This document shows, one piece after another, positions 32,860 through 56,693 of a stretch of 64,000 nt of DNA. Source of the DNA: Leptospirales bacterium. GTDB lineage: Bacteria > Spirochaetota > Leptospiria > Leptospirales > Leptonemataceae. The stretch is from assembly GCA_019694685.1 (NCBI GenBank), contig JAIBBM010000024.1:698-64697 (forward strand), read 5' to 3'. The position numbers and the translations under genes were made by a program. Each line of letters opens with the position of its first letter. Position 1 is the stretch's first letter. The notes beneath the pieces are model-generated. The model ran no database searches, was not told the origin of the DNA, and saw nothing but the letters and a program-made list of their open reading frames with translations.

Positions 32860-32868
32860 GGAGCGACT

Positions 32869-42569: not shown

Positions 42570-43028
42570 TTAGAGTGCTGGCAGGTTCAGAAAAAGAGTC
42601 GCTTTCTTGCCCGTGCCCCAGTGCAGGTCACAAAAAATGTTTCTACCCTTGCGAAAGCAGCTCACTTCGTGGTTTCGGCCCTGAATGGAAATAGGAAGGG
42701 AGAATTCGAATTTTTCTGAGATTTCGCGCTGAGCGGATCCGACGAGGATGTTTAGAATTTCGCGCGCAGTGTCTCCGACCATCGGGTCTTCAAAAGGAGA
42801 TTTAGTCTGAGTGAAACGCTCTGCCGCATCCATGGCGCTGTCTGCGTCAAACGCAAGCACTACGCACGCGGGTGCCTTCGATGAAATGGTGATGCATGCG
42901 CTCACGTCCGCGCGAACGGGATAATCTACGTGTTCGGCAATGGGCCCCTGTGTCATGTCTACGGAAAGCATGTCGCGAAACGTAGTTTTGAGACATGTAG
43001 AGAAAGCCAGTATGTGCGAAGTGTTCAC
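42570..43028 (-). CDS. CheX/CheC-like chemotaxis phosphatase-fold protein
   Basis: 152 aa with a GTG start preceded by GAGG. DTAREILNILVGSA resembles the CheX/CheC D/E-x3-N-x3-G helix. It lies 13 nt downstream of the CheY-like gene. Confidence 0.6.
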   Translation of the reverse strand: MNTSHILAFSTCLKTTFRDMLSVDMTQGPIAEHVDYPVRADVSACITISSKAPACVVLAFDADSAMDAAERFTQTKSPFEDPMVGDTAREILNILVGSAQREISEKFEFSLPISIQGRNHEVSCFRKGRNIFCDLHWGTGKKATLFLNLPAL

Positions 43029-43041
43029 GTTTCCATCCCTC

Positions 43042-43407
43042 TTAATGCAGAAATTCCTGAATGTTCTCCCAGAGCACGCTGCCTCGAACTGGTTTTTCGA
43101 TGTAAGTGTTTACACCGGCCTTCCCTGCTTCCAATACTTTTTCTTTGTCGGTGACAGAGGTTACCATGACGATTGGAACGTCTTTCCCGGAGCCTCGCAC
43201 CTGCTTCACAAAAGAAAGACCATCTACCACAGGCATCTGCCAGTCCAGGAGAACCAGATCGATGCTTTCGCTTGCGAGTTTGTCCAGGGCTTCTTGCCCG
43301 TTGACCGCTTCCACCACTTCAATCTGTTTACCGCTGCCATAGCTTGCCAGCGTGCTTTTAATCACGCTTCGCATCATCGCAGAATCGTCCACTACAAGTA
43401 TCTTCAT
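43042..43407 (-). CDS. Single-domain CheY-like response regulator
   Basis: MKILVVDDSAMMR, LVLLDWQMPVVDG, IVMVTS, YIEKP. All receiver landmarks (DD, D, T, K) are present. Confidence 0.9.
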   Translation of the reverse strand: MKILVVDDSAMMRSVIKSTLASYGSGKQIEVVEAVNGQEALDKLASESIDLVLLDWQMPVVDGLSFVKQVRGSGKDVPIVMVTSVTDKEKVLEAGKAGVNTYIEKPVRGSVLWENIQEFLH

Positions 43408-43447
43408 TACAGATGTCAGATTCGAGACGCCGGGGTATGCCGGCAAT

Positions 43448-45868
43448 TCAATCCCGCTTCTCCAGAACAGACTCGGGCAGAACCACGATGAATTTGGTGA
43501 ATGTTCCTCTTTTGGTCTCTACTCGAACATTGCCTCCGAGCGCTCTGGCTTCTTCTTCCACTACATCGAGACCCACTCCACGGCCCGCGCTTTCTGTAAC
43601 TCGCTCTGCCGTGCTAAAGCCTGGCCGGAAAATCAATCTCAGCACTTCTGCAGGAGATGCAACGTCCGCCTGTTCTTGCGTCAAGATTCCCTGTTCGATC
43701 GCGTGACGGGCGATTCTCTCCTGATCCAGGCCCGCCCCGTCATCTTCCACCGCAATTCGAACCTGGCCGTCATTGTGAGTCATCAGAAGGCGTATGGAAC
43801 CATCGATTGCTTTTCCTTTCTCTTTTCGCGCGTCGGGCGTTTCAATTCCATGAACTACAGCGTTTCGAATCATGTGACCCAGCATCGCGCGAACGCGAAC
43901 CAGAGCATCTCCACGGAGAACTCCCGCACGATTCTCAAACTCAAACGCAACAGCTTTGCCCGCGGCGAGTGCTTCCTGCTCTACAATTCTTTCACATCTT
44001 TCTGCAATCTCTGCAGATGCATCGAGAGTCTTGACTCTAAACACGTCCTTCATGTTTACAATCTTGTCAAACAACGCTCCGCCATCCTGAATTTCCGCGA
44101 TGAGTTTCTTTCCAAGTTCCGCGGCGCCTGCAAGCTTATCCTGTGCACTCGATTCTGGATCTTTGCGAATTGCATCGAGCACATCTTCCAGTTCGTGAGC
44201 ATTCTTCGCAATCGCGTCGAGACCGAGCGCGCGAGCGTTTCCCTTGAGAGTGTGCACTTCTCTAAAACACAAATCAAGAGCGGATCTGTCCGATCCTGCA
44301 AGAGCAAGCTTCTCGACCACCACATCCGCTGTTCGGCCTGCTTCCTCCAGAAAAGATTTAAAAACATTAGGATCGAGATTCAGAATCTGATATAGCTTTT
44401 CAATGCGCGCAGACTGCTCTGCTTCGCGTTCTGCAAGAGCGCGCTCCAGTTTCATTTGTTCCGTGCGATCGTCGATGACAACGAGCAGCTTCTCTATCTG
44501 TCCTGCGCCGTTCTTAACTCTCGAAAATGAAAAGGAAAGAACCTTCTCCTGATCCCCTGACAGGATCCGAACTTCAGAAAGCGGATTGGCAGCGGCGAAC
44601 ATTCGCATGGACATGAATGGATTTTCAATGAGCTGTCCTACAAAGTCACGAACAGAATTCTGCAACTGAGCCGGGAACAAATCTGCAAATTCCAACCCTT
44701 CCGGTTGCTTGCCCAGCATATCGGGAACTCTTCCTGAATATTCAGAGTTTACTTTTCCGGATCTGTCTATGGTCAGGATGCCTTCCTGAATGTTTCGAAG
44801 AATGTCAGACATCTGACCGCGGCTTTCATTGAGTTCCGCCGTACGTTCTTTAACACGATCTTCCAGAGTAGTGGCATACGTTCGCACTTCGCGGACCATG
44901 TCGTTGAACGTGGATGCAAGAATTCCAAGCTCATCCTTACTCTTAACTACAATTTGAGTAGAATAATCACGCGCTTTCACCCTTTCTGCGCCGGCGCGAA
45001 GAGCAACAATGGGGCTCGCAATCAAACGAGAAAGAGCAAGAGAAAGAATGATTGCAAGAACCACGCTTCCACCAATGACCGCGATACATATATAGTAAAG
45101 TTTCTCAAGTAAGTTGAACTGTGAGGTTGCACTCATGTCAATCCCCATCACGGCCGCGACGCTGCCATCCGCTCGAAGAATGGGGACATACGCGGACATC
45201 CATTTGCCCCACTGATCTTCGTAATATTCCTCACTCGTGCGCACCTTGCCATCGAATGCAGCCATGAGACCTGGCTGAGCGGATACGTTGTAGAGCTTTC
45301 CAATCTCTGAGGCCTCTTCTTCTGGATCAATCTTGCCGTTCCCGTTTTCATCTCCTGCTTCGTAGTCTGCGTCTGCGATGAATTTGAGAATGCTTCTGTC
45401 TTTGACTTCCGGAATGGGAACGAGCAAGTACGTAAAGCGCACGCGCGGCGGATCGTCTTTTGGCCAGGGCTCCTGACCTAGAATTCCGAGATTCACCATC
45501 CCTTTGCGTGAAGCATTCTTGATCTGTCTGAGAGCCTGGACCACCAGAATGAAATCATCCGATTTTTCAATTTCGTGCACTCGCGAACCGGAGATCACAG
45601 AGATGCTTTCGCCGGGCCCGATAGACAGGTGGTCTTTGTTGCGCGAAGAATCTTTCTCTGACAGTTCATTGAGCCGATCGATCGCACGCCTGTGTTCTGC
45701 GCTGAATATGAACTGGCCGGTGCGGCCCATATCTGCCAGTCTTTCTGCAAGTTCATTCCAGACGTTCTGTCGCGTTATCTTGTAAAAGTAACCCAGGCCG
45801 GCACTGGTGGTGACGAAAGCTAGCATCGACGTTGCGAAAGCAAGCTTCAAACCGAATGAAATGCGCAT
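43448..45868 (-). CDS. Membrane sensor kinase with CheA-type core: TM, extracytoplasmic domain, TM, HAMP, PAS-like, Hpt (P1), CheA-like ATPase (P4); no CheW-like P5
   Basis: 806 aa. TMs LKLAFATSMLAFVTTSAGLGYFY and ICIAVIGGSVVLAIILSLAL. HAMP: DELGILASTFNDMV. Hpt: CFREVHTLKGNARALGLD. P4: LGHMIRNAVVHGIE, VEDDGAGLD, FRPGFST, GRGVGLDVV. The protein ends about 25 aa after the G2 box. Confidence 0.8.
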   Translation of the reverse strand: MRISFGLKLAFATSMLAFVTTSAGLGYFYKITRQNVWNELAERLADMGRTGQFIFSAEHRRAIDRLNELSEKDSSRNKDHLSIGPGESISVISGSRVHEIEKSDDFILVVQALRQIKNASRKGMVNLGILGQEPWPKDDPPRVRFTYLLVPIPEVKDRSILKFIADADYEAGDENGNGKIDPEEEASEIGKLYNVSAQPGLMAAFDGKVRTSEEYYEDQWGKWMSAYVPILRADGSVAAVMGIDMSATSQFNLLEKLYYICIAVIGGSVVLAIILSLALSRLIASPIVALRAGAERVKARDYSTQIVVKSKDELGILASTFNDMVREVRTYATTLEDRVKERTAELNESRGQMSDILRNIQEGILTIDRSGKVNSEYSGRVPDMLGKQPEGLEFADLFPAQLQNSVRDFVGQLIENPFMSMRMFAAANPLSEVRILSGDQEKVLSFSFSRVKNGAGQIEKLLVVIDDRTEQMKLERALAEREAEQSARIEKLYQILNLDPNVFKSFLEEAGRTADVVVEKLALAGSDRSALDLCFREVHTLKGNARALGLDAIAKNAHELEDVLDAIRKDPESSAQDKLAGAAELGKKLIAEIQDGGALFDKIVNMKDVFRVKTLDASAEIAERCERIVEQEALAAGKAVAFEFENRAGVLRGDALVRVRAMLGHMIRNAVVHGIETPDARKEKGKAIDGSIRLLMTHNDGQVRIAVEDDGAGLDQERIARHAIEQGILTQEQADVASPAEVLRLIFRPGFSTAERVTESAGRGVGLDVVEEEARALGGNVRVETKRGTFTKFIVVLPESVLEKRD

Positions 45869-47189: not shown

Positions 47190-49901
47190 ATGGGCGTGCG
47201 ATGGGGGCTGGCAGCATGGATCGTCTTGTTTGCCGGGGCTTTAAGCGCGCGCGAAACCAGAATCGGCGCCATTCAGCCATTCCAGTCTCCAGAAGAAAAA
47301 GGAGTAGAGAGCGGCGTGCGCGAAACACTGCGTAGATCTCTGCAAAATCTGGAGATCCAGGCAGAGGACACAGGCGAAAATAGACCAGACGGCAAAGGCG
47401 ACTATTTCGCCACTATCTATTACTCCAGAGGTGCTGCTGGAGCACTCAATCTCTATGGCCAGATTTATGATTCCGCAGAGAGCACTCTGATTGACGCTGT
47501 CAGCATCACAGATGAATCGATCCGTGGCGCGGGCATCGCTCTACCAGCAGAAGAAACACGCGGTTCAGATGAAGAGACAATTTCGCGCTTTGCAAATCGC
47601 ATGGCAGTGCGCATCAAAGGCAACCCGCGAAAGGTAGAAAGAACAGAAAACATCCAGGAATCTCTTCTATCTCTCGAAATAGGAAAAAAAATTCAGTTCC
47701 CGATTCGCAGGTCAGACACATCTGGAGAAGTCTTTCGCATGCTCGAAGACCAGAGAATCGTGACAGCAACCCGTCAGGCGACCAGAGTCAAAGAAGCACC
47801 GGCGGCAGTTCACGTAATCACAGAAGAGCAAATCAGGCAGAGGGGGTACCGTACTCTCACAGACGCATTGCATGACGCGCCTGGTTTTGATATCATTCAT
47901 GTTTACGGCATCTTTCCGGATCTAATTCACCAGAGAGGCCTTGTGGGAAACAATCAGAGAACTCTGGTCTATGTGGATGGAATTCTCGACAACAACCTGA
48001 CGGAAAACGGTGTGCTTGGCGGAACTCTGCGATTCCCTCTCTACAATGTAGAAAGAATTGAAGTCATCGGCGGACCTGCATCCGCACTCTACGGAGCCAA
48101 CGCATTCAACGGTGTCATCAACATCATCACCAAAGACGGAACCACGCCGGGTGGAGGAGTCCAGGCACTCGGAGGATGGAGCGAAGACAACTTTCACAAC
48201 CCTGGAGGCGGAGGATCCATCAGCGCACGTGGAACCACAGGAGATGCGGACTTACGATTCAGTTACAGCGCAGCTGCCACGTATTTAAAATCTGCGGGCC
48301 CTTACTTCGGAGACATCCAGCACCTGGACAAAAGAAATGCGAACGCAAATGACGCAGCCTACTACACTGAAACGCAATTCTGTGGTGGAGTGTGTAATCC
48401 GGATGCTAAATCGATTGGATACTGGTGGTCTAAATACTATGATTCTCCTGAAGACACATACAACATCACGGCGCGATTTTCTGCCGGTGGCTTCAGATTC
48501 GAGACAATCAACTGGCAATATCTGCAGGGAAACGGCACATTTTCCAACGGAACGCAACAAATAGACACGGATCGAATCAAAGGGTTTCGCGGCGCGTCCT
48601 GGGATTTTCGAAACAACAGCGCAAGCCTGGGATACCTCTACGCGATCAGCTCTAAAGTATCCCTCGACAGTGAGATCACAGCCAGACATACAGACGTGCT
48701 TAGCTCCAGTCACGACGAAGCGCCCAACAGTCCGGGCCCATACGCCTACTATAGACCGTACGATACTACACCTTCCTCCAATTACGAAAGACCGGACTAT
48801 GCATACGTTGCAAACGAAAGGCTGCTCTGGGAACAAACTCGCGGATCCAATCTCACTGTAGGCGTTGAATCTTCTTTTACAGTCGTGCCCACTGCGTATG
48901 GTTCCGCGCGAAGATTTAGATACGTCAACAATGCCGCCTATCTCCAGCAAATCTGGGGACCCTGGGAATGGCTGTCTCTGACAGCAGGATACCGCTATGA
49001 CTACAGCACCATCTACGGCGCGGCAAACACTCCGCGCATTGGAACTGTAATCACTCCAATGAAGGACCTGTCCATCAAACTGCTTGCTTCCAGCGGATTT
49101 CGCGCGCCCACAGCCTGGGAACTATTCAATGCAACGAATCAAAGAAAAGCAAACCCCGATCTAAAACCGGAAAGGCTGCGATCGTATGAGTTTGGAGTCG
49201 GCTATCGTTTCTTTCGGCGTTACTACGTATCCGTTCAGCAATACTACAACAGAATCAACAATCTACTCCTCGAAGTGCAAACGGCAGAGCCAAATCCAAA
49301 CCAGAGCGGCACAAACTGGAATCAAAACCAGAATGTAGGACGCGCCACGATTTACGGAACAGAAGTAGAAACCGACGTGCAAATCTCGAACTCTCTTGGA
49401 CTGTTCTTGAACTACACTTACAACCACGGCAAATACGAAGATCTGTCTTACTCACTCACTTCCTCTCCCTCCACAAGAGGTAGAACAGGAGACGATCCGC
49501 TCTTCGACGCCACAGCCGCCGCCGTGAAGCAGACTCTCGGTAGATCCATTGTGCCAGAGTCCGGTTCCATTCCAAACATAGCGCCTCACCATGCAAATGC
49601 AGGACTTACCTGGAAAATCTTGAAGAACGTCACCGCGTTCTTTGGCATCAACTATGTGGACATTCGTCGCACTGTGGCAACCAATCCAGAGAAGACTGTG
49701 CCCGGGTATACTATGGGAACCTTGAACCTCAGATGGGAAGATGCGTTTCTTTCTGGCCTCGATTTCTCCCTTCTGGTGCGAAACGCAGGCAATCAACAGT
49801 TCTTTGATCCTGGAATCCGGGCAGCCACTGGCTCCTACTATCCCACAGAGCATCCGCTAGAAAAAAGAAACATCTGGCTCACTGCCGGATACAGATTCTA
49901 A
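47190..49901 (+). CDS. TonB-dependent outer-membrane receptor with an approximately 190-aa N-terminal extension
   Basis: 903 aa. Signal peptide WGLAAWIVLFAGALSA. Plug: VTATRQATRVKEAPAAVHVITEEQIRQRGYRTLTDAL, IEVIGGPASALYGANAFNGVINIITK. C-terminal barrel ends LTAGYRF. Confidence 0.85.
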   Translation: MGVRWGLAAWIVLFAGALSARETRIGAIQPFQSPEEKGVESGVRETLRRSLQNLEIQAEDTGENRPDGKGDYFATIYYSRGAAGALNLYGQIYDSAESTLIDAVSITDESIRGAGIALPAEETRGSDEETISRFANRMAVRIKGNPRKVERTENIQESLLSLEIGKKIQFPIRRSDTSGEVFRMLEDQRIVTATRQATRVKEAPAAVHVITEEQIRQRGYRTLTDALHDAPGFDIIHVYGIFPDLIHQRGLVGNNQRTLVYVDGILDNNLTENGVLGGTLRFPLYNVERIEVIGGPASALYGANAFNGVINIITKDGTTPGGGVQALGGWSEDNFHNPGGGGSISARGTTGDADLRFSYSAAATYLKSAGPYFGDIQHLDKRNANANDAAYYTETQFCGGVCNPDAKSIGYWWSKYYDSPEDTYNITARFSAGGFRFETINWQYLQGNGTFSNGTQQIDTDRIKGFRGASWDFRNNSASLGYLYAISSKVSLDSEITARHTDVLSSSHDEAPNSPGPYAYYRPYDTTPSSNYERPDYAYVANERLLWEQTRGSNLTVGVESSFTVVPTAYGSARRFRYVNNAAYLQQIWGPWEWLSLTAGYRYDYSTIYGAANTPRIGTVITPMKDLSIKLLASSGFRAPTAWELFNATNQRKANPDLKPERLRSYEFGVGYRFFRRYYVSVQQYYNRINNLLLEVQTAEPNPNQSGTNWNQNQNVGRATIYGTEVETDVQISNSLGLFLNYTYNHGKYEDLSYSLTSSPSTRGRTGDDPLFDATAAAVKQTLGRSIVPESGSIPNIAPHHANAGLTWKILKNVTAFFGINYVDIRRTVATNPEKTVPGYTMGTLNLRWEDAFLSGLDFSLLVRNAGNQQFFDPGIRAATGSYYPTEHPLEKRNIWLTAGYRF

Positions 49902-49910
49902 AGAGAACTC

Positions 49911-51425
49911 TTACTCTTGAAGTTTTCTCAGAGCGTCTCGCTTACGCACTGCTATGCGAAGGTATTCCTGAGCTTCTCGGTTCCCTGGTTCGATCAATAG
50001 AATATTCTCAAAAGTCTTCACTGCCCGGTCAAACTCTCGCGCATTGTAATCCGCAATCCCCAGTTTGAGGTCCTCTGCCAGGCGCTGCTTCTGCCTGGCG
50101 CGAACTCCGTCCAGTGCCATGGCAGCACGAGTGTTGTTTGGCATGTATTGTACTGCAGAACTGTAAAACCTGGCTTTGTCATACGGATCGACTGCCGCGT
50201 CTCCGCGAGCGCGGTACTGTTCACTGATTCCGAGTTTCGCTTCGTCCAGGCCGGCCATCGCTTCTTGATTTCCAGCATTCACGCTGAGAACGTTTTTATA
50301 TTCCTGGATCGCTCTTTCAAAATTCTTTGCGGCCAGGTACTGGCGCGCGGATTCCATCATTTGCCTGGTTTGCGCGCCGCTCTGCCTTTCTACAATGGCG
50401 TCCCTGTAACGTTTCGCGGCCGCGTCATCGGGCGCTTTCTTCAAGATGGCATCAAAAACAATCAGTGCCGACTTTGGTTTACCCTCATTCATCAAGTTGA
50501 CGGCTGATAGAAACAATCTAGTGCGACTGGCAGTCTCTTTGACTGATTGCGGAATCGTCAGACCGGACTCTTCCGCATAACGCTCGTTTAACGAGAAATA
50601 CGCCTGATCCGGGAAAACGACTCTGCGCGGCCCACATCCTTTCCCCTGAAGAACAGTACCTGCCATCTCTGCCGTCACACGCCCGATGCGAGTGTAGTCT
50701 GGACGCAATGAGAACGTCGCACCTGCTTGCATAAGAGATGAGAACGAAGTCATCAGCACAATCTTGTTCTTCTTGCAGAAGTCAGAAACAATCTGAAATT
50801 GTTCGCTGTCATAAAGGGCATCTGGCACTAGATAAAAAGCGTCCGCTTTCCCCTGGATACTTTCGAGAGCTCGCGGAAGCTCCGATTTGCCAGAAAGTCT
50901 GCGCTTGTGATATTCAACGCCCAACTGCAAATCCAGATACTCCCCTTCAGAGGCTGCAAATTCGCCTTCAGGCGTGGAATAAAATGCATACACGTTACGT
51001 GCGGAAGGCGAAAGCTCGCGAAGAGACTTGAAGAATTCAGAAAGGGATACGTCCATACTTGTGCCGCACACGTCGGGCCTGGAAGCAACACCGACCGCGC
51101 GCGGACTCGATACCATGGAAAAGACGATCTTGCTTCCGTGGCCTTCCGCAAGCGCAAGCTGCGTTGCCTTGGATCCGATGGTCACAATGAGATCTGCATC
51201 TGATCTTTCTGAAAAAAACCGCGCTGGATCTGGAAGGGCATCCACATACACTGGTTGATCAATTTGTGCAAGCCCCGGATCAAACGAAGAATAGAAACCT
51301 GTCAGTGCATCCGCATAGATGCCAGTGTCAGAAGATACGATGACTGCAATGTGCCTGCGCTCCGCAATCAACCCGGCCGCGCACAACATCGCGGCAGTTA
51401 GAATGCATGCATAGACGCGAATCAT
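49911..51425 (-). CDS. Exported ABC-type substrate-binding-like (ABC_sub_bind-like) domain fused to TPR repeats
   Basis: 504 aa with a signal peptide (ACILTAAMLCAAG). The N-terminal roughly 290 aa follow the periplasmic binding-fold pattern (HIAVIVSSDTGIYADALTGF, LIVTIGSKATQLA, KADAFYLVPDALY, DYTRIGRVTAEMA). The C-terminal half has TPR-like helices. The start forms an ATGA overlap with the upstream stop. Confidence 0.6.
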   Translation of the reverse strand: MIRVYACILTAAMLCAAGLIAERRHIAVIVSSDTGIYADALTGFYSSFDPGLAQIDQPVYVDALPDPARFFSERSDADLIVTIGSKATQLALAEGHGSKIVFSMVSSPRAVGVASRPDVCGTSMDVSLSEFFKSLRELSPSARNVYAFYSTPEGEFAASEGEYLDLQLGVEYHKRRLSGKSELPRALESIQGKADAFYLVPDALYDSEQFQIVSDFCKKNKIVLMTSFSSLMQAGATFSLRPDYTRIGRVTAEMAGTVLQGKGCGPRRVVFPDQAYFSLNERYAEESGLTIPQSVKETASRTRLFLSAVNLMNEGKPKSALIVFDAILKKAPDDAAAKRYRDAIVERQSGAQTRQMMESARQYLAAKNFERAIQEYKNVLSVNAGNQEAMAGLDEAKLGISEQYRARGDAAVDPYDKARFYSSAVQYMPNNTRAAMALDGVRARQKQRLAEDLKLGIADYNAREFDRAVKTFENILLIEPGNREAQEYLRIAVRKRDALRKLQE

Positions 51426-52627
51426 TTTGCCACCCGCAGCCCGGCCGCCTGAGGAATCTCAATGCACACCATGGTCAAATCGTCTGGAAGGCGATCTGAC
51501 CCTGCAAATTCGCGGCGATATTCCAGCATACCCTGCACTACTGTCTGAGGAGTAGTGCCCGGTTTCAAACGAAGCCTGTCTGCGATCTGAAGCAAATCGA
51601 TCACGTCTCCTTCTGCATTGACGCTTTCAATGAGACAATCCGTGTAGATGAAGATTCGATCTCCTTCAAACATTTGAAATGGCACTGAGTGATATTCGAT
51701 GTTGCGAAACACACCCAGCATGGGCTGCTCTGTAAAAAGAAGTTCCACCTGTCTGGACGAATCGGCGGGAACGTACAGAACCGGAGGATGCCCTGCAGTT
51801 AAGTATTCCAGACGATGATTTGAATCAATATGAACGGCGCATGCAGTCAGAAAGTAATTGGAATGAGTGAGTTCGCACAAATCGCGATTCGCAGCTTTCA
51901 CAAGCTCTGCCAGATCCATTTTGCCAGAACTGGCTTCCTCGAATCTTCTTTTGAAAATTGACTTCGCAGCAATGGAGATGAGACTGGAAGCAACTCCGTG
52001 TCCCATCACATCAGCAATCACCACCCACGTGCCGTTCTCTGACTCAAAAAATTCCCACATGTCCCCGCCAAGCTCTGTCATTGCCTGGTAGGTTCCGAAA
52101 ACGTTTACAAGAGTATGCTTCTCGAAGTCCTGCGAAAGGATTTGCGCCTGCACTGCGTGTGCAACCTGGAGCTCTCCTTCTAGAATCTGCTTTTGTCTTT
52201 CGAGCTGTCTGTTCTGCTTTTCAATCGTCGCAAGCGCGTCTTCTAGATCTGTTGTGACGCGGATGAACTCGTCGTAGCCCGCCTGGAACGCTTCTGCATC
52301 TTCCCGCGTTTCAGTGACGTCCTGAACGCTGAGCAAAGTTCCGTGCGAAGGAATGTTTCTTTTTAAAAAGCGAATATGACGAATCGAACCGTCCGCGCCG
52401 CTTGCATCAAGGCCGCTGGATACGGGAGCCTGGCTTTCAAGAAAGCTGCGAAACTTCTTTCTTGCTTTTTCATCGAAGACTCTTTCTTCCCAGACGCTGT
52501 CACCCAGATCGGAAGCAGTGATTCCCAGCAGCTTCTCTGCCGCCGGGTTCATGGCCATTAGTTTACCGTCTCGCAGAACCAGTTCCGCGGAAGGCGACTC
52601 CTGCCATAAATCCCGGACGTCTACCAT
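51422..52627 (-). CDS. Cytoplasmic PAS + PP2C/SpoIIE protein-serine phosphatase (RsbU/RsbP-like)
   Basis: PAS-like N-terminus (LVLRDGKLMAMNPAAEKLLG), coiled coil, then PP2C motifs ELGGDMWEF, VIADVMGHGVASS, YLTAGHPP, IYTDCLIE, DDLTMVCIE. The ATG at 52627 shares one nucleotide with the upstream TGA. Confidence 0.85.
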   Translation of the reverse strand: MVDVRDLWQESPSAELVLRDGKLMAMNPAAEKLLGITASDLGDSVWEERVFDEKARKKFRSFLESQAPVSSGLDASGADGSIRHIRFLKRNIPSHGTLLSVQDVTETREDAEAFQAGYDEFIRVTTDLEDALATIEKQNRQLERQKQILEGELQVAHAVQAQILSQDFEKHTLVNVFGTYQAMTELGGDMWEFFESENGTWVVIADVMGHGVASSLISIAAKSIFKRRFEEASSGKMDLAELVKAANRDLCELTHSNYFLTACAVHIDSNHRLEYLTAGHPPVLYVPADSSRQVELLFTEQPMLGVFRNIEYHSVPFQMFEGDRIFIYTDCLIESVNAEGDVIDLLQIADRLRLKPGTTPQTVVQGMLEYRREFAGSDRLPDDLTMVCIEIPQAAGLRVAK

Positions 52628-52995
52628 CAAATCCCTCGAACAGATGTGTACTTTGACTTTCGCGCAATCACATCAAGGGCACGAAAGGAAGCTGACTGAA
52701 CTTTTCTATTGGAATCGTACACGAACTCACCCTGAATCTTTTTGTCTGCCAGAGTGCGAAGAAGAGCAATCAGAGGAGGAATACTTGCTGAATTCATATA
52801 TTCCAGAGGCACGAAGTTGCACTTCACTCCAAGCTTTGCTTTAAGTGCCTCTGCGATCACCTGCTCGAAATAAGGATCCAGCACATCTTCTGGATTGGGG
52901 GCATGCATGGCACCTTTCCAGTTCAATTCGATATTCGAACCGCTGACGACTGCTTCGATTTCGAAGTCCTGCATGGTCAAATTCGAAAGAGCCAT
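52627..52995 (-). CDS. SiaC/DUF1987-like small regulatory (phospho)protein
   Basis: 122 aa. IELNWKGAMHAPNPEDVLDPYFEQVI ... VKCNFVPLEYMNSASIPPLIALLRTL ... GEFVYDS follows the DUF1987 pattern: G.S.PEN..FY.PV, then L.Y.N(T/S)SS, then W.YD. Pattern recognition only. Confidence 0.55.
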   Translation of the reverse strand: MALSNLTMQDFEIEAVVSGSNIELNWKGAMHAPNPEDVLDPYFEQVIAEALKAKLGVKCNFVPLEYMNSASIPPLIALLRTLADKKIQGEFVYDSNRKVQSASFRALDVIARKSKYTSVRGI

Positions 52996-53462
52996 TATGC
53001 ATTCTCCAGCGGCCGGCGGGCCAGAATCGTCACGCTTTCGCCGTCAATATCAGCACTGAGATGGTACTCTCCTTCGTACGCTATGCGATACAATCCCATC
53101 CGGCTGTGCCCGTCGGGATCTTCCTTCAACTGTTCCAATCGTGCTACATACAATTCAAAAGGATCTCCGTCGCGGATACGATCAATGACCGAGCGAAGAG
53201 CGTCTTTGTTCTGGGCGTTCTTACTATAGTTCTTCACGCGAAAGGCACAATATCCGGCCTGCGAATCAAATGAGAATTCAACGGGTCGTCCTGAATCAGA
53301 GTCGGTGTATTTCAAAGCGTTCTCAAGCAACTCAATGGCGGTGACTGTGGTCTGCTCGAGGAAATCTTTGCTGAGTCCTTTGAGAGCAGGATCCGTTTGC
53401 AGAGATTCTTTGATCTTCTTGATCACGTTCCATTCTGGTTCAATTGTAAGCGAAAATGACAT
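52995..53462 (-). CDS. Small GHKL-type serine kinase-like protein (SiaB / anti-sigma-kinase-like)
   Basis: 155 aa. N-box-like AIELLENALKYT. Glycine-rich lid-like HSRMGLYRIAYEG. It sits between a PP2C gene and the DUF1987-like gene, with a 1-nt gap and a 1-nt overlap respectively. Confidence 0.5.
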   Translation of the reverse strand: MSFSLTIEPEWNVIKKIKESLQTDPALKGLSKDFLEQTTVTAIELLENALKYTDSDSGRPVEFSFDSQAGYCAFRVKNYSKNAQNKDALRSVIDRIRDGDPFELYVARLEQLKEDPDGHSRMGLYRIAYEGEYHLSADIDGESVTILARRPLENA

Positions 53463-53463
53463 A

Positions 53464-55020
53464 TTACTTCTCCCGCCGAATCATGGCGAAAGTGATATCG
53501 TCGGCTGGCCTGAGCCCCCCTGTATGCGCACGCAAGCTGTTCATGATTCGCTCTTCCAGGCCGGCCAGATCCGAGGTTCCGTGCTTACGCACGATCTCCT
53601 CTATTTTTTCCTGACCGAACATTTCTTTTTTCCCATTCATAGATTCTACGAGGCCATCCGTAAACAAGAAAAGGAGATCCCCCACAGACAGCTTGAACTT
53701 GCCCGCGCGCATGTCCTTTTTGACGCCAGCGTCCACCCCCAGCCAGAAACCATCTGTCGGAACCACTTCCAGCTTCTTGCCGGCGGCCCTGTAGATCAAT
53801 GCATCCTGATGGAGACCGGCAAAAGAGAAATTCCCTTTTGCATCCGCGCGATAAAACGCGGCAGTCATGTATTTCCTTTCCCTCAATCGTCGAATATTGG
53901 CGAATAGAACGTCGTTCACATGCATGAATGCCTGCGAGGGCTCAAGGTCTGGCGAAACTTCCATAGTAGAATGAATGGCAGTCTGCGCCATGAGCATGGT
54001 TAGACCTGCGCGAAGACCGTGACCTGAAACATCTCCGATGAAAAACCAGAATCTGGGCGAGCGCCCGTCTATGTGTATGACATCCACATAATCTCCGCCC
54101 ACTTCATCTGCAGTCTGCATGAAGCCTCGAAACGAATAAGGGCCGACCTTTTGCGGCTCTGGAATCATGGCCACTTGAATGCCCTGAGCAATCTCAAGCT
54201 CTCGCTTGATGGCTGCCTGCTCCGTCTTGAGTCTCTCCGAATCCTTCAAACTGCGCGACATGTGATTGAAGGTTGCGCCCAGCTGTCCGATTTCTCCTGC
54301 AGTCGTGATCTGAACTGTAACGCCGAGTTCCCCGCCCGCGATCCTCTCCGCCGCGGATGCAAGCGATTCGATGGGTCTCGATAACCTTCCTGAAATGAGA
54401 AATGCAAATACAAGTGAACCCAGAAGCAAGAAGACAGAGACAAACAGGATGGAGTTGCGAACCTCAACGATGGGCGCGTAGATTACTTTTGTATCAAACT
54501 CAAAAACAACCGTGCCCAGACGAATCGGATCCGCGTGTGCCGGAACAAAAAAGAGAGGGAATGCAAATCGAAGGATGCCCGCTACTTCTCTGTATTGCAG
54601 ATTGTTGATAGAATTCAAGTATGCCAGATCTTGCGCCGGGATTTCATCCGATGAATGATTTTCACCTGAATGAGCAATGATTCGGCCGTATGTGGGGCTC
54701 TTCTTCCTGGGCGAGCTTTTCTGACTCACAACGTACGCGGCGAGAAATCCAGCGGGCCCTGAGCTTTTGACTGCACGAACCGCTTCTTTCGTAGAAGTGA
54801 ATACGTCATCGTTTAGTAGCAGCTCGTCCTGAGCCTGCGCCACAACGTTGATGGATAGATTGCGACAAACATCGAGTGTCTTTTCGATCAGGATCTTCTG
54901 GTACTGGAAGATCACCACAAAGGAAAGTGCCAGAACAGAGAAGCTTACGATGCCGGAGGTCAGGATCATCAGGCGAACGCGGATCTTGAGTCTACCGCGC
55001 AGCGTTGAAAACAGCCCCAT
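53464..55020 (-). CDS. Membrane sensor PP2C/SpoIIE phosphatase with HAMP (SiaA/RsbU-like)
   Basis: 518 aa. TM1 VRLMILTSGIVSFSVLALSFVVIF, a roughly 150-aa outside region, TM2 ILFVSVFLLLGSLVFAFLI. HAMP: AGEIGQLGATFNHMS. PP2C: EVGGDYVDV, FFIGDVSGHGLRAGL, FAGLHQ, LFTDGLVE, DDITFAMI. Confidence 0.85.
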   Translation of the reverse strand: MGLFSTLRGRLKIRVRLMILTSGIVSFSVLALSFVVIFQYQKILIEKTLDVCRNLSINVVAQAQDELLLNDDVFTSTKEAVRAVKSSGPAGFLAAYVVSQKSSPRKKSPTYGRIIAHSGENHSSDEIPAQDLAYLNSINNLQYREVAGILRFAFPLFFVPAHADPIRLGTVVFEFDTKVIYAPIVEVRNSILFVSVFLLLGSLVFAFLISGRLSRPIESLASAAERIAGGELGVTVQITTAGEIGQLGATFNHMSRSLKDSERLKTEQAAIKRELEIAQGIQVAMIPEPQKVGPYSFRGFMQTADEVGGDYVDVIHIDGRSPRFWFFIGDVSGHGLRAGLTMLMAQTAIHSTMEVSPDLEPSQAFMHVNDVLFANIRRLRERKYMTAAFYRADAKGNFSFAGLHQDALIYRAAGKKLEVVPTDGFWLGVDAGVKKDMRAGKFKLSVGDLLFLFTDGLVESMNGKKEMFGQEKIEEIVRKHGTSDLAGLEERIMNSLRAHTGGLRPADDITFAMIRREK

Positions 55021-55063: not shown

Positions 55064-55681
55064 TTATTCGATTTCGAAAACGATCGCGGAAGATGCCTGC
55101 GAAATGCCGGACGCCTTGAGCTGCCCCAGGGCCTCATGGGCCGCGCCCGGGTCTGCGAAACAGCCCAGGAACAGATTCTCCCTGTCCTGTCCCTTCACCG
55201 CGATGCGAAAGGCCAGGCCTCTTTCAGACTGTTCCTTGAGTCCTTTGCATGGAGCAGGTGGAATAGACTTAAGCTCCGGGACTTTTGCGATGCGACGTGC
55301 GATGCGGTCCGCGTCCGCAGAGGGAAAAGTGCCCACCTTGATCAAATAACGCGATGGAGAAGAGTCGGACATTTTTGCCGGTTCTTCCGATGGCTCAGTG
55401 CCCACTCTCGTAGACCTTTCGGACGCAGGTTCCTCGGGGTCCGTTGATTTCTCAGAACTACGGGATTCGGAATGTGAGGTAGCCTTGTCAGGGAATCGCA
55501 CGAGGCTGTCTGTGCCCCGCACTCTCATGATCTGGACGCCGGCTGCAATGCCCACCGTGAACGCCAGAATGCAAAGCGCAAATGTGGTTACGACCGCTCG
55601 ATTCTTAATACCCGATGTGGAGCCTTCGCTTTCCACGAGAGGTTCGCGGCGGATCTTGCGTGAGAAATCGATATTCTGCAT
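55064..55681 (-). CDS. Membrane-anchored SPOR-domain protein
   Basis: I prefer the start at ATG 55681 (MQNIDFSRKI). TM: VVTTFALCILAFTVGIAAGV. A low-complexity S/E/P linker follows. The C-terminal YLIKVGTFPSADADRIARRI ... AFRIAVKG...LFLGCFADPGAAHEAL looks like a SPOR fold. Confidence 0.6.
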   Translation of the reverse strand: MQNIDFSRKIRREPLVESEGSTSGIKNRAVVTTFALCILAFTVGIAAGVQIMRVRGTDSLVRFPDKATSHSESRSSEKSTDPEEPASERSTRVGTEPSEEPAKMSDSSPSRYLIKVGTFPSADADRIARRIAKVPELKSIPPAPCKGLKEQSERGLAFRIAVKGQDRENLFLGCFADPGAAHEALGQLKASGISQASSAIVFEIE

Positions 55682-55736
55682 CTCGTTATATGGAAAATAT
55701 CGGTCAGTTTGACAAAACACACCGAAAATTTCAAAG

Positions 55737-56693
55737 ATGGGACTTCCCGGCCGCATCGTACTCTTTGTTTTCCTGGCCGCCGCGGCTCCCGCTGGTGCGG
55801 CCCCGCTGCGTATATCCTATAACCTCCAGTCTACAGATCCAACAGAAGACCAGCTGGCAGCTCTCACGTCCTACATTCGCGACAATAAAGGATCCTACTT
55901 TCTACTACAAGGGTTTGCGTGCGATACTGGAGGCTTTCGCGTTTCGCTCAAGATCGCAAGCCAGCGCCAGGATAAAATCCAGGCACTCATCCAGAAAGAA
56001 GTAGGGCGCGATCACACTGCACTGGCAAACCCGGCTGTGATAGAAGGGGAGCCAAGAATCGAACATCGCAAACTGGAAATCGAAGCATTCAAAACGCCAG
56101 AGGCCCTGGCAGCAGCGGTAAGACTTGCAAACGAAAATACAGCTCGATTCCATTCAGCCTTCCAGGTAGAAACTCCACCTGAAACACATAACGAGCCAGA
56201 AGACGGACACCCGCTGCTCTGGCTGGGTCTACTCCTGGCAGCACTTGTCATTGTATTTATCTATTTCATTCTCACGGGAAACGAAAGGAAAAGAAGGCGG
56301 CATGCTCTCACGCCTGAACAGGCAGAGGCCGTTCAGGCAATTACGGGAGAGGCTCCAGTCCAGCCTTCGCAAAAAACAAGAAAGCACCGGATCGTCACGG
56401 CAGAAAGCGTGATTGAACCCGCAGCATTCGTAAAGGAGTTAAAGCCCATGGCTTCCAAGAAGAAAGCATCCAAACCAGGTCCTACGATCAAGAAAGCGCT
56501 GGATAAAGCATACGAAAACAGGTCCCTGGGCGAAATCGCAAAAAGCCCCGTTCATTCGCTGCAGGGTCTCACGCCACGACATAGCAAGATGCTTGAGGAA
56601 GCATTCGGCGTGAAAACCGTAGAGGACCTGGCAGGCCTCAAATACTTTGAGCTGGCGCGAGCGATCACAGTGCTTGCACGATACGAAGATTGA
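55737..56693 (+). CDS. Hypothetical bitopic protein (exported N-domain, TM, cytoplasmic tail with helix-hairpin-helix-like end)
   Basis: 318 aa. Signal peptide GRIVLFVFLAAAAPAGA. Mid TM LLWLGLLLAALVIVFIYFIL followed by RKRRRH. The last roughly 80 aa (LQGLTPRHSKMLEEAFGVKTVEDLAGL) are HhH-like. An internal SD+ATG lies at 56433/56448 (see findings). Confidence 0.5.
   Translation: MGLPGRIVLFVFLAAAAPAGAAPLRISYNLQSTDPTEDQLAALTSYIRDNKGSYFLLQGFACDTGGFRVSLKIASQRQDKIQALIQKEVGRDHTALANPAVIEGEPRIEHRKLEIEAFKTPEALAAAVRLANENTARFHSAFQVETPPETHNEPEDGHPLLWLGLLLAALVIVFIYFILTGNERKRRRHALTPEQAEAVQAITGEAPVQPSQKTRKHRIVTAESVIEPAAFVKELKPMASKKKASKPGPTIKKALDKAYENRSLGEIAKSPVHSLQGLTPRHSKMLEEAFGVKTVEDLAGLKYFELARAITVLARYED

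What the first reader, a model, noticed from the sequence alone, without database searches (positions are those of the whole stretch)
49911..55020. SiaA/SiaB/SiaC-like partner-switch operon with no diguanylate cyclase, followed by a second PAS-PP2C phosphatase and an SBP-TPR exported protein
Seen in sequence: five minus-strand genes are chained with almost no spacing. The junctions are a 1-nt gap at 53463, a TAATG overlap at 52995, a TGATG overlap at 52627 and an ATGA overlap at 51422..51425. In order they encode: (1) TM / outside domain / TM / HAMP / PP2C (GDVSGHG type); (2) a 155-aa protein with a GHKL N-box-like ELLENALKY; (3) a 122-aa protein with DUF1987-like landmarks (PNPEDVLDPYFEQVI, LEYMNSASI, FVYDS); (4) PAS + PP2C; (5) a signal-peptide protein with a periplasmic-binding-like fold plus TPR. 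Established knowledge: in Pseudomonas aeruginosa SiaABCD, the PP2C SiaA and the kinase SiaB set the phosphorylation state of SiaC (DUF1987). SiaC then activates the diguanylate cyclase SiaD. Inference: here the phosphatase-kinase-switch core appears conserved, but the output gene is not a GGDEF protein. The switch protein may control the second phosphatase or the exported SBP-TPR protein. Alternatively, two phosphatases (envelope-sensing and PAS-sensing) may converge on one phosphoprotein. I do not know of a described system with this wiring.
Basis: partly seen in the sequence, partly recalled or inferred. Interest (0 to 1): 0.72.

Follow-up and report, generated by a model that had tools for sequence, protein, structure and literature searches.

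The report
SiaB/SiaC-like phospho-switch with two phosphatases
This Leptospiraceae operon encodes a small kinase, its switch protein and two sensor phosphatases, a diverged relative of the Pseudomonas SiaABC and Bacillus Rsb partner switches. It is conserved without any output enzyme next to it, so it is a new variant of a known signalling design, not a new kind of system.

Summary
Five tightly packed minus-strand genes (49911-55020) encode TM-HAMP-PP2C, a 155-aa protein (K155), a 122-aa protein (S122), PAS-PP2C and an exported SBP-TPR protein.

K155 models as a GHKL anti-sigma-kinase fold, closest to SiaB. It shares SiaB's unusual motif set, with Asn instead of Asp at the G1 position. S122 models as a STAS fold, equally close to SpoIIAA, RsbV and SiaC. 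Its invariant Ser69 aligns with the SpoIIAA phospho-serine.

Neither protein passes the Pfam or NCBIfam cut-offs for SiaB or SiaC. Both are diverged members of the uncharacterised slr1658/slr1659 superfamily.

Across about 20 Leptospirales loci, K155, S122 and PAS-PP2C occur together in nearly all. HAMP-PP2C is usually present. SBP-TPR occurs only where HAMP-PP2C does. No locus has a GGDEF gene, so this is not a decayed siaABCD operon.

Elsewhere the superfamily forms a cassette of kinase, switch protein, methyltransferase-like protein, sometimes a class III cyclase, and PP2C. Kinase-switch fusions also exist.

Most likely two sensor phosphatases converge on one phosphoprotein, as RsbU and RsbP do on RsbV. 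The output is unlinked and unknown.

Verdict: new variant of a known kind, moderate interest.

The parts
53464..55020 (-). Membrane sensor phosphatase: TM1, an outside loop of about 145 aa, TM2, HAMP, helical linker, PP2C (518 aa). The architecture is SiaA-like.
   Evidence: Pfam HAMP E 8e-15 and SpoIIE E 2e-35. NCBIfam SiaA 67.6 bits, E 8e-19, far below the equivalog cut-off of 700. Two hydrophobic segments. The metal-binding motifs VGGDY.D, IGDVSGHG, TDG.vE and DDitF are at least 90% conserved in 12 orthologues. Its catalytic domain is the closest window relative of the PP2C in the wider slr1658/slr1659 cassettes (150-175 bits).
52995..53462 (-). K155: a 155-aa SiaB-like GHKL-fold protein and predicted Ser/Thr kinase for S122. 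It is a diverged member of the slr1658 superfamily.
   Evidence: NCBIfam slr1658_superfam E 2e-15 (56.5 bits, below the cut-off of 100). Pfam HATPase_c_2 E 0.003 and DUF6272 E 0.005. AF2 model pLDDT 89. Foldseek hits are UsfX, SpoIIAB, SiaB (TMq 0.72) and RsbW. The broadened profile hits SiaB chain 6kko_A at E 8e-5, sharing E44, N48, Y52, N78, Y105, G123, L124 and I127.
52627..52995 (-). S122: a 122-aa STAS/SiaC-fold switch phosphoprotein. It is a diverged member of the slr1659 superfamily.
   Evidence: Pfam SiaC E 0.047, below threshold. The family profile's best PDB sequence hit is the STAS antagonist TM1442, E 4.5e-4. AF2 pLDDT 89. Foldseek hits SpoIIAA, TM1442, RsbV and SiaC all give TM 0.6-0.68. 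Of 149 profile-retrieved relatives, 136 match NCBIfam slr1659_superfam, 56 match Pfam SiaC and 53 match STAS.
52789..52791 (-). Codon of Ser69 of S122, the predicted phospho-acceptor in the invariant Y-M-N-S-A-S motif.
   Evidence: S69 is invariant in 36 sequences and at least 90% conserved in 149 distant relatives. It aligns with the Ser of 'MDS(S/A)G' in TM1442 and SpoIIAA. It sits at the N-terminus of helix alpha2 (H69-84) in the model. SiaC is phosphorylated at Thr68 (PMC7278518), but no residue-level SiaC alignment was produced here.
51422..52630 (-). Cytoplasmic sensor phosphatase: PAS, a conserved coiled-coil linker, PP2C (402 aa). The start may be the ATG at 52627.
   Evidence: PP2C E 3e-37. 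PAS TIGR00229 28.4 bits, above its cut-off of 22.9. The motifs LGGDmW, DVMGHG, YTDCL.E and DDL and the linker AGYDEF..vT..LE are conserved in 16 orthologues. It directly follows S122 in every locus where the downstream gene is visible except L017; L019 is a solo S122 copy.
49911..51425 (-). Exported SBP (PF04392) plus TPR protein. It is an accessory gene and a probable periplasmic input partner of the HAMP-PP2C.
   Evidence: Pfam ABC_sub_bind E 4e-16 plus several TPR models. N-terminal hydrophobic segment. It lies downstream in the window's close relatives (L006-L008, L104/L105) or divergently upstream of HAMP-PP2C (L010-L013). It is absent from loci that lack HAMP-PP2C.
47190..49901 (+). TonB-dependent outer-membrane receptor, convergent with the operon. 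It travels with the SBP-TPR gene.
   Evidence: Plug E 2.5e-21 and TonB_dep_Rec_b-barrel E 1e-34. It is adjacent to SBP-TPR in the window, L006, L007, L104/L105 and L013, the last in the other orientation. In L008 it is nearby but separated by two small ORFs.
55064..55756 (-). 230-aa single-TM protein 43 nt upstream, possibly the first gene of the transcription unit.
   Evidence: ORF. One hydrophobic segment at 52-79. No Pfam hit. Homologues lie directly upstream in L007 and L008. L104/L105 have an unannotated 199-aa gene in the same position. No terminator above background separates it from the operon.

Best explanation
The locus is a partner-switching phospho-module of the SiaABC/RsbUVW kind, built from a diverged slr1658-like kinase (K155) and a diverged slr1659-like STAS-fold protein (S122).

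Proposed mechanism:
1. K155 binds S122 and phosphorylates it on Ser69.
2. Two sensor PP2C phosphatases remove that phosphate. One is membrane-anchored (TM, outside loop, TM, HAMP) and reads an envelope cue, probably through the exported SBP-TPR protein and its neighbouring TonB-dependent receptor. The other is cytoplasmic and reads a cue through its PAS domain.
3. Both act through coiled-coil linkers. Two inputs therefore converge on one phosphoprotein, as RsbU and RsbP converge on RsbV.
4. Unphosphorylated S122 is the active species. It acts on an effector that is not encoded in the operon, in the manner of SiaC on SiaD or HsbA on HsbD.

Shown here: gene content, the folds (predicted), conservation of catalytic and acceptor residues, and conserved gene linkage.

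Inferred: kinase activity, Ser69 as the acceptor, that both phosphatases use S122-P as substrate, the sensing role of SBP-TPR, and the nature of the output.
For: Folds. K155 matches SiaB, SpoIIAB, RsbW and UsfX. S122 matches SpoIIAA, RsbV, TM1442 and SiaC. Both models have pLDDT 89.

SiaB link. SiaB is the best PDB sequence hit of the K profile (E 8e-5). The alignment shows the same N-box (E..xN..xY), Asn at the G1 position and a G2-like G-L motif. SiaB is a demonstrated kinase of SiaC Thr68 (PMC7278518).

Acceptor. Invariant Ser69 aligns with the SpoIIAA/TM1442 phospho-Ser and caps helix alpha2.

Direct K-S partnership. The genes are translationally coupled here. They are adjacent in all loci where both are visible. 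They are fused into single 276-298-aa proteins in 8 of the top 150 relatives.

Phosphatases. All metal-binding Asp motifs are conserved in orthologues of both. HAMP-PP2C carries the catalytic domain typical of the superfamily's cassette phosphatase. PAS-PP2C is overlapped with S122 and present in nearly every Leptospirales locus.

Precedent. RsbU and PAS-RsbP both dephosphorylate RsbV, and HAMP and PAS are common N-terminal sensors of partner-switch PP2Cs (PMC12143880).

SBP-TPR. It co-occurs only with HAMP-PP2C, in two different orientations. In another sub-clade an SBP_bac_3 protein plus an alginate-export-like porin sit in front of the module instead.
Against: - No biochemical data exist for any member. 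The structures are predictions, with TM-scores of only 0.55-0.72.
- K155 lacks the canonical DxGxG G1 box. Kinase competence rests on the analogy with SiaB.
- Nothing tested here shows that both phosphatases act on S122. One could be an output or a feedback enzyme.
- Some loci have only one of the two phosphatases (L014-L016 lack HAMP-PP2C, L017 lacks PAS-PP2C), so dual input is not obligatory.
- No effector was identified. Conserved neighbours look like ordinary synteny.
- The SBP-TPR link is purely positional and could also reflect synteny within one clade.
Confidence: 0.6

Rival explanations
1. Phosphatase cascade of the RsbR/S-RsbT-RsbU-RsbX type. K155 is an RsbT-like switch kinase held by S122. 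One PP2C, the HAMP enzyme, resets S122-P like RsbX. Free K155, or S122 itself, binds and activates the other PP2C, the PAS enzyme. That enzyme then dephosphorylates a different, unlinked STAS protein.
For: - The gene set of one kinase, one STAS protein and two PP2Cs equals the upstream sigma-B module. RsbT activates RsbU by binding its N-terminal domain and linker (PMC12143880).
- The PAS-PP2C linker is one of the best-conserved parts of that protein.
- In the wider superfamily, the cassette PP2C and a class III cyclase share an uncharacterised N-terminal domain of about 200 aa that could be a docking site for K or S.
- A canonical STAS gene lies 4-5 kb upstream in five Leptospirales loci.
Against: - Neither window PP2C has an RsbU-type N-terminal domain or the shared N-terminal domain of the wider cassettes.
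- No second STAS gene lies near the window operon.
- Loci with a single PP2C still keep K and S.
- SiaB, the closest characterised relative, is not known to activate a phosphatase.
Confidence: 0.2
2. Classical anti-sigma switch. K155 is an anti-sigma factor that sequesters a sigma factor or another regulator encoded elsewhere. Dephosphorylated S122 only serves to pull K155 off its target.
For: The top Foldseek hits of K155 include the true anti-sigma factors SpoIIAB, RsbW and UsfX. S122 matches their antagonists. This is the default mechanism for this fold pair.
Against: - No sigma-factor gene was recognised among the annotated genes of the loci surveyed (Pfam tables).
- K is closest to SiaB, for which no sigma target is described.
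- K-S fusion proteins and enzyme genes in the wider cassettes point to non-sigma outputs.
Confidence: 0.15
3. Degenerate remnant. The locus is a siaABCD-type operon that lost its diguanylate cyclase, or K155 is a pseudokinase, so the module no longer switches.
For: K155 lacks the canonical DxGxG box. The Pfam and NCBIfam scores of K155 and S122 are below family thresholds.
Against: - No GG[DE]EF-type ORF occurs in any of 20 homologous loci, so absence of a cyclase is the ancestral state of this clade.
- The N-box, N78, the G2-like motif and Ser69 are invariant or nearly so across 29-36 sequences at 50-87% identity.
- SiaB has the same Asn-for-Asp G1 position and is an active kinase (PMC7278518).
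- Both PP2Cs keep their catalytic residues.
Confidence: 0.04

Closest known systems
SiaABCD of Pseudomonas aeruginosa (SiaA TM-HAMP-PP2C, SiaB kinase, SiaC DUF1987 phosphoprotein, SiaD diguanylate cyclase)
   Same: - The gene order is membrane HAMP-PP2C, then small kinase, then small switch protein.
- K155's best solved-structure relative is SiaB, by profile (E 8e-5) and by fold (TM 0.72). It has the same unusual motif set, with Asn at G1.
- S122 has the SiaC/STAS fold. Its predicted acceptor is residue 69, and SiaC is phosphorylated at Thr68. This is a similar residue number only; no residue-level alignment was made.
   Different: - There is no diguanylate cyclase here or in any orthologous locus.
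- A second PAS-PP2C occupies the fourth position.
- K155 and S122 fail the SiaB and SiaC family thresholds.
- The acceptor is Ser, not Thr.
- An exported SBP-TPR gene is attached.
slr1658/slr1659 superfamily pair (NCBIfam NF047703 and NF047705; Pfam DUF6272). Synechocystis Slr1658 has a regulatory mutant phenotype and an unknown signalling chain.
   Same: - K155 matches slr1658_superfam at E 2e-15.
- Relatives found with the S122 profile match slr1659_superfam in 136 of 149 cases.
- The adjacent K-then-S gene order and a linked PP2C are shared.
   Different: - The window proteins score below the curated cut-offs, and S122 does not hit NF047705 at all.
- The usual third gene, a SAM-methyltransferase-like protein of about 464 aa, and the occasional class III cyclase are absent.
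- The phosphatase has TM-HAMP in place of the cassette's own N-terminal domain.
- A PAS-PP2C has been added.
Bacillus subtilis sigma-B partner switch (RsbU and RsbP, RsbV, RsbW)
   Same: - Two sensor PP2Cs, one of them PAS plus coiled coil plus PP2C, are paired with one STAS phosphoprotein and one GHKL kinase.
- The folds match RsbV and RsbW.
   Different: - No sigma factor is in the operon.
- The kinase is SiaB-like rather than RsbW-like.
- The environmental phosphatase is a membrane HAMP protein rather than RsbT-activated RsbU.
HptB-HsbR-HsbA (P. aeruginosa) and BgrSTUWV (S. meliloti) partner switches
   Same: A STAS protein whose phosphorylation state is set by a PP2C/kinase pair acts on a non-sigma effector.
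   Different: Those systems have identified diguanylate cyclase effectors and canonical STAS and RsbW family members. No effector is identifiable here.

Membership tests
SiaABCD system | SiaA: membrane HAMP-PP2C phosphatase (NCBIfam NF038263 equivalog) | tested here: not met
   The architecture is the same (two TM segments, HAMP, PP2C). The score is 67.6 bits against an equivalog cut-off of 700. It is SiaA-like, not SiaA.
SiaABCD system | SiaB family kinase (NF038262/NF038264) | tested here: not met
   K155 has no hit to either model at E<=0.1. Remote homology is supported: the A4 profile hits SiaB chain 6kko_A at E 8e-5, Foldseek TMq is 0.72, and 9 of 21 wider family members hit SiaB_fam_kinase at E<=0.01.
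SiaABCD system | SiaC / DUF1987 phosphoprotein (Pfam PF09345, NF038265) | tested here: not met
   13.8 bits, E 0.047, against a gathering score of 24.5. No SiaC chain appears among the profile-versus-PDB sequence hits. The fold match to SiaC (TM 0.60-0.67) is no better than to SpoIIAA or RsbV.
SiaABCD system | Co-transcribed GGDEF diguanylate cyclase output (SiaD) | tested here: not met
   No G[GAS][DE]EF motif occurs in any ORF over 150 aa of 20 homologous loci, or anywhere in the window. The gene after S122 is a PP2C.
slr1658/slr1659 superfamily pair | K protein matches NF047703 (slr1658 superfamily regulator) | tested here: inconclusive
   E 2.2e-15 but 56.5 bits, below the curated cut-off of 100. 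All 21 sequences of alignment A4 match at E<=0.01.
slr1658/slr1659 superfamily pair | S protein matches NF047705 (slr1659 superfamily regulator) | tested here: inconclusive
   The window protein itself has no hit. Of 149 proteins retrieved with its family profile (E 1e-13 to 1e-43), 136 match.
slr1658/slr1659 superfamily pair | Adjacent K-then-S genes with a linked PP2C | tested here: met
   The window has a TAATG overlap between K and S. The same order holds in the Leptospirales loci and in the metagenome cassettes.
slr1658/slr1659 superfamily pair | Methyltransferase-like third gene of about 464 aa. This is the common cassette form seen here, not a curated criterion. | tested here: not met
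   It is present in 44 of 80 metagenome loci. An HMM built from it finds nothing in the window or in the Leptospirales loci at E<=10.
Partner-switching system (RsbU/V/W kind) | PP2C phosphatase with intact metal-binding aspartates | tested here: met
   Both PP2Cs match Pfam SpoIIE at E<=1e-35. The GGD, DV.GHG, TD..E and DD motifs are conserved in orthologues.
Partner-switching system (RsbU/V/W kind) | GHKL-fold anti-sigma-type kinase | tested here: met
   Fold level: Foldseek hits SpoIIAB, RsbW, UsfX and SiaB with probability 1.00. The N-box residues E44 and N48 are invariant. Enzymatic activity was not testable.
Partner-switching system (RsbU/V/W kind) | STAS-fold antagonist with a conserved Ser/Thr at the start of helix alpha2 | tested here: met
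   Foldseek. S69 is invariant, aligns with the SpoIIAA/TM1442 Ser and caps helix H69-84.
Partner-switching system (RsbU/V/W kind) | Reversible phosphorylation of the antagonist and exchange of binding partners | not testable with these tools
   This needs kinase and phosphatase assays and interaction assays.
Partner-switching system (RsbU/V/W kind) | Identified target (sigma factor or enzyme) | tested here: not met
   No sigma factor, GGDEF protein, cyclase or methyltransferase-like gene lies in or next to the operon in any Leptospirales locus.

The most novel reading that the evidence does not exclude
The window operon is a Leptospirales offshoot of a large, mechanistically undescribed family of SiaB/SiaC-related switches, the slr1658/slr1659 superfamily. 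This family has at least 715 clusters at 50% identity. Its members plug into different enzymatic outputs: a SAM-methyltransferase-like protein in most cassettes and a class III nucleotide cyclase in a sub-branch. In this clade the enzyme output was lost, and the switch instead gates a second phosphatase (PAS-PP2C). That would make a kinase, STAS protein and phosphatase relay that links envelope solute sensing (SBP-TPR and TonB receptor) to a cytoplasmic Ser/Thr phosphorylation network.
Probability: 0.2. Interest if true: 0.65.

Novelty: new variant of a known kind. Interest (0 to 1): 0.45.

Why it matters
The locus extends the SiaABC type of partner switch well beyond c-di-GMP control. It also gives a mechanistic reading, kinase plus STAS-like phosphoprotein, to two proteins that MAG records label 'hypothetical protein'. 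Their cyanobacterial superfamily relative Slr1658 has a strong regulatory phenotype but no known signalling chain (PMC6525291).

The analysis supplies concrete, testable residues: K155 N48 and N78, and S122 Ser69. It offers a natural system in which an envelope-sensing phosphatase and a PAS-sensing phosphatase sit on either side of one switch pair.

The survey also exposes a widespread, uncharacterised cassette of kinase, switch protein, methyltransferase-like protein, sometimes a class III cyclase, and PP2C. That cassette may be the more interesting target for experiments.

The basic logic of PP2C, GHKL kinase and STAS protein is well known, and multi-phosphatase input is described for sigma-B. 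The finding is therefore incremental rather than surprising.

Tried and rejected
- Direct family assignment of S122 to DUF1987/SiaC and of K155 to SiaB was rejected. Scores are below the curated thresholds.
- Profile-versus-PDB sequence search with the narrow K155 family (A2) gave nothing significant. SiaB appeared only after adding distant relatives and the N-terminal halves of fusion proteins (A4).
- The decayed-siaABCD idea was rejected. No locus has a GGDEF motif.
- A search for the superfamily's methyltransferase-like gene found nothing in the window or in the Leptospirales loci. A search for its class III cyclase found only an unlinked gene 40 kb away in the window.
- A search for a conserved candidate output among neighbours, by all-against-all clustering of 15 loci, found only ordinary synteny: HflX, a DnaJ-like protein, malic enzyme, NYN/YacP and AAA_5 genes. 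It also found the two alternative pairs of solute-binding protein plus outer-membrane protein.
- Homologues of the STAS plus membrane-protein pair seen upstream in other loci were sought in the window. None was found.
- The promoter and terminator scan was uninformative, at or below shuffle expectation.
- The outside loop of the HAMP-PP2C, the upstream 230-aa protein and the 798-aa protein preceding K in L015 gave no Pfam hits.
It was rerun with A5.
- Zer et al. 2018 (Slr1658) and Chen et al. 2020 (EMBO J, SiaB structure) are not held in the library. SiaB catalytic residues could therefore be compared only through the printed alignment.
- No complex (multimer) prediction was possible.

Full report
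**1. Observation**

The junction sequences are a 1-nt gap, a TAATG overlap, a TGATG overlap (with an alternative TTG start 3 nt upstream) and an ATGA overlap. The window has about 50% G+C throughout.

A partial protein identical to K155 over 95% of its length is deposited from a 'Leptospiraceae bacterium' MAG, so the window most likely comes from an uncultured Leptospiraceae genome.

**2. Domain content**

- Gene 1 has HAMP and SpoIIE-type PP2C domains. Two hydrophobic segments bracket an outside loop of about 145 aa.
- Gene 4 has a PAS domain (TIGR00229, above its cut-off) and PP2C.
- Gene 5 has an N-terminal hydrophobic segment, an ABC_sub_bind (PF04392) solute-binding domain and TPRs.
- Both phosphatases keep the four aspartate-containing metal motifs. 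These are at least 90% conserved in 12 and 16 orthologues respectively.
- In the PAS enzyme the helical linker between PAS and PP2C is among the best-conserved segments. This fits the coiled-coil linker control described for partner-switch phosphatases with PAS, HAMP, GAF or receiver sensors (PMC12143880).

**3. The 155-aa protein (K155)**

Library scores are weak: HATPase_c_2 E 0.003 and DUF6272 E 0.005 in Pfam. NCBIfam 'slr1658 superfamily regulator' gives E 2e-15 but 56.5 bits, below the cut-off of 100. There is no hit to the SiaB models.

An AF2 model built on 29 homologues is confident (pLDDT 89). Foldseek against the PDB returns only GHKL anti-sigma-type proteins. These are UsfX, SpoIIAB, RsbW and SiaB, with SiaB giving the best TM-score (0.72).

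The family alignment shows an invariant N-box (E44, E47, N48, K51, Y52) and an invariant S-R-M-G-L G2-like motif. There is no DxGxG G1 box; Asn or Ser sits at position 78.

On its own, that missing G1 box would suggest a pseudokinase. I therefore broadened the alignment with distant relatives and the N-terminal halves of fusion proteins (A4). The best PDB sequence hit then became SiaB chain 6kko_A (E 8.2e-5). The printed alignment shows that SiaB has the same features:
- IEMTQNIRHY aligned to IELxENALKY.
- An Asn at the G1 position ('VSAGNLVE').
- The conserved Tyr.
- GLGLLDIA aligned to RMGLYRIA.

SiaB is a demonstrated, 'unusual' kinase of SiaC Thr68 (PMC7278518). K155 is therefore best read as a SiaB-like kinase, not a dead GHKL domain. 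This is an inference from shared residues, not a test of activity.

**4. The 122-aa protein (S122)**

Pfam SiaC scores only 13.8 bits (E 0.047, gathering score 24.5), and NCBIfam gives nothing. The family of 36 sequences is highly conserved. The motif L-E-Y-M-N-S-A-S-I-P-P-L-I and most of the C-terminal helix are invariant.

The best PDB sequence hit of its profile is the STAS anti-sigma antagonist TM1442 (E 4.5e-4). 'YMNSAS' aligns to 'YMDSAG', which puts Ser69 on the conserved Ser of that motif. The broader profile (A3) aligns the same position with 'FMDSSG' of SpoIIAA, whose phospho-acceptor Ser58 lies there according to the published SpoIIAA literature (recalled, not retrieved here).

The AF2 model (pLDDT 89) has the STAS topology, with Ser69 capping helix alpha2. 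Foldseek hits SpoIIAA, TM1442, RsbV and SiaC all give TM 0.6-0.68. S122 is therefore a STAS-superfamily switch protein about equidistant from canonical antagonists and from SiaC. SiaC itself was described as structurally related to STAS antagonists (PMC7647112, PMC8457831).

**5. The superfamily**

The S122 profile was searched against 1.84 billion representative proteins. It finds 715 clusters at E<=1e-3 and 295 at E<=1e-10.

Of the top 149 hits:
- 136 match NCBIfam 'slr1659 superfamily regulator'.
- 70 match the generic anti-sigma antagonist model.
- 56 match Pfam SiaC.
- 53 match Pfam STAS.

Asn68 and Ser69 are at least 90% conserved even at this depth.

Eight of the 150 hits are single polypeptides of 276-298 aa, with a K-like N-terminal half and an S-like C-terminal half. 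Such fusions argue for a direct K-S partnership. All 21 K-type sequences in A4 match slr1658_superfam, and 9 also match the SiaB family model.

The window pair is thus a diverged branch of the slr1658/slr1659 superfamily, which is itself a remote relative of SiaB/SiaC. In the literature held here, Slr1658 is known only from a Synechocystis mutant phenotype, with 'no details known about the signalling chain' (PMC6525291, PMC7555055). No paper in the library mentions DUF6272 or the NCBIfam family names.

**6. Gene neighbourhoods in Leptospirales**

I used 15 loci from species-representative genomes, all MAGs labelled Leptospirales, Leptospiraceae, Leptonemataceae or Spirochaetia. I added loci found by exact protein look-up.

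- K155, S122 and PAS-PP2C occur in that order in every locus where the region is visible, with two exceptions. In L017, RecA follows S122. L019 is a solo S copy in the same MAG.
- HAMP-PP2C precedes K155 in most loci but is missing in L014-L016.
- SBP-TPR lies downstream in the window's close relatives (L006-L008, L104/L105). These also share the TonB receptor, malic enzyme, HflX and DnaJ-like synteny.
- In L010-L013, SBP-TPR is instead divergently transcribed right next to HAMP-PP2C.
- SBP-TPR is absent wherever HAMP-PP2C is absent.
- In another sub-clade an SBP_bac_3 protein and an alginate-export-like outer-membrane barrel precede the module.
- No ORF with a GG[DE]EF-type motif occurs in any of these loci.

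The absence of a cyclase is a conserved property of the clade, not decay. PAS-PP2C, not SBP-TPR, is the conserved partner.

**7. Neighbourhoods in the wider superfamily**

A metagenome scan with a profile of typical slr1659-like proteins returned 80 loci. The dominant arrangement is K (about 160 aa), then S (about 120 aa), then a protein of about 464 aa, then a PP2C of about 450 aa.

- The 464-aa protein is SAM-methyltransferase-like. Methyltransf_25 matches 26 of 29 scanned. It occurs in 44 of the 80 loci.
- In a sub-branch of about 10 loci, a class III adenylate/guanylate cyclase (PF00211, E about 1e-50) is inserted before the PP2C.
- That cyclase and the PP2C share an unannotated N-terminal region.
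- A more distant pair sits next to a Y_Y_Y/beta-propeller-PP2C.
- The cassette PP2C is far closer to the catalytic domain of the window's HAMP-PP2C (150-175 bits) than to its PAS-PP2C (50-75 bits).
- The methyltransferase-like gene has no homologue in the window or in the Leptospirales loci.

The window operon therefore looks like a rewired derivative. The family's own phosphatase domain has been placed behind a TM-HAMP sensor, the enzyme gene has been lost, and a PAS-PP2C has been added.

**8. Mechanism**

Best supported (confidence about 0.6):
1. K155 phosphorylates S122 on Ser69.
2. The membrane HAMP-PP2C and the cytoplasmic PAS-PP2C both dephosphorylate it, integrating an envelope cue and an intracellular cue.
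3. Unphosphorylated S122, or K155 released by it, acts on an unlinked effector.

The two-phosphatase convergence has a textbook precedent: RsbU and PAS-RsbP both act on RsbV (PMC12143880).

The SBP-TPR protein is exported, so it cannot be the target of a cytoplasmic switch. Its strict co-occurrence with HAMP-PP2C in two orientations makes it a candidate periplasmic co-sensor, perhaps together with the adjacent TonB-dependent receptor. This is a positional inference only.

The main rival (about 0.2) is an RsbT/RsbS/RsbX/RsbU-like cascade in which one PP2C is the regulated output. A classical anti-sigma role for K155 (about 0.15) cannot be excluded, because only 64 kb of the genome is visible. 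A decayed or pseudokinase locus is very unlikely (about 0.04).

**9. Comparison and novelty**

Functionally this works like SiaABC or RsbUVW. As a matter of membership, it fails the curated thresholds for SiaA, SiaB and SiaC and lacks SiaD. It is a sub-threshold member of the slr1658/slr1659 superfamily and lacks that family's usual third gene.

It meets every testable generic criterion of a partner-switching system except an identified target. I rate it a new variant of a known kind.

**10. Limits**

- All structural statements rest on predicted models.
- No enzymatic or interaction data exist for any family member.
- The genome scan used exact peptide patterns, so absence from cultured Leptospira is not proven.
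- ORF calling in the fetched loci was mechanical.
- The output of the module remains unknown.

Noticed in passing
L043-L103 (metagenome loci), e.g. L051:5800-9254, L078:5800-10960: A widespread, apparently undescribed cassette: slr1658-like kinase, slr1659-like STAS protein, a SAM-methyltransferase-like protein of about 464 aa, then a PP2C of about 450 aa. The methyltransferase-like gene occurs in 44 of 80 loci. In about 10 loci a class III adenylate/guanylate cyclase (PF00211) is inserted before the PP2C. The cyclase and the PP2C share an unannotated N-terminal domain of about 200 aa.
   Followed up: partly
Proteins P0116, P0121, P0125, P0128, P0168, P0173, P0192, P0254: Single polypeptides of 276-298 aa that fuse a K155-like (slr1658/SiaB-like) domain to an S122-like (slr1659/STAS-like) domain. 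These are natural kinase-substrate fusions.
   Followed up: partly
L001:1292-3258, L004:2290-4213, L014:1463-3411, L016:1472-3420 (also L010): A canonical STAS protein (112-117 aa) is encoded directly upstream of a polytopic membrane protein of 480-530 aa. The pair lies 4-5 kb from the K-S module in one Leptospirales sub-clade. No counterpart exists in the window.
   Followed up: partly
window 31201-34050 (+): A PAS/HisKA_2 histidine kinase (31201-32859) is followed by a receiver-PAS protein with a weak, sub-threshold GGDEF match (32869-34050; E 2e-4, no GG[DE]EF motif). It is probably a degenerate diguanylate-cyclase-like response regulator, about 17 kb from the operon.
   Followed up: no
window 42570-45868 (-): An 806-aa HAMP-Hpt-HATPase_c protein (43448-45868) is followed by a CheX-like phosphatase (42570-43028). 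This looks like an unusual membrane HAMP-Hpt kinase next to a chemotaxis phosphatase.
   Followed up: no
window 7608-10343 (+): A 911-aa protein resembles the class III nucleotide cyclases of the wider cassettes (phmmer E about 1e-16 to 1e-17). It is unlinked to the operon, about 40 kb away.
   Followed up: no
L001:5264-7820, L004:5355-7879, L014:4707-7450, L016:4865-7434: In a sister sub-clade the module is preceded by an SBP_bac_3 solute-binding protein and an alginate-export-like outer-membrane barrel of about 530 aa. The window clade has SBP-TPR and a TonB receptor instead. Both cases pair a solute-binding protein with an outer-membrane channel beside the switch.
   Followed up: partly
PDB entry 6kko chain A: In the PDB copy searched, the SiaB chain of the SiaB-SiaC complex carries the molecule name 'Putative serine phosphatase', although it is the kinase. 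This could mislead name-based annotation transfer.
   Followed up: no
window 55064-55756 (-) and 55737-56693 (+): The 230-aa single-TM protein just upstream of the operon is conserved in close relatives and has no Pfam hit. By eye its C-terminal part resembles a SPOR-type domain, but this was not verified. Its 5' end overlaps a divergent 318-aa ORF by 20 nt.
   Followed up: no
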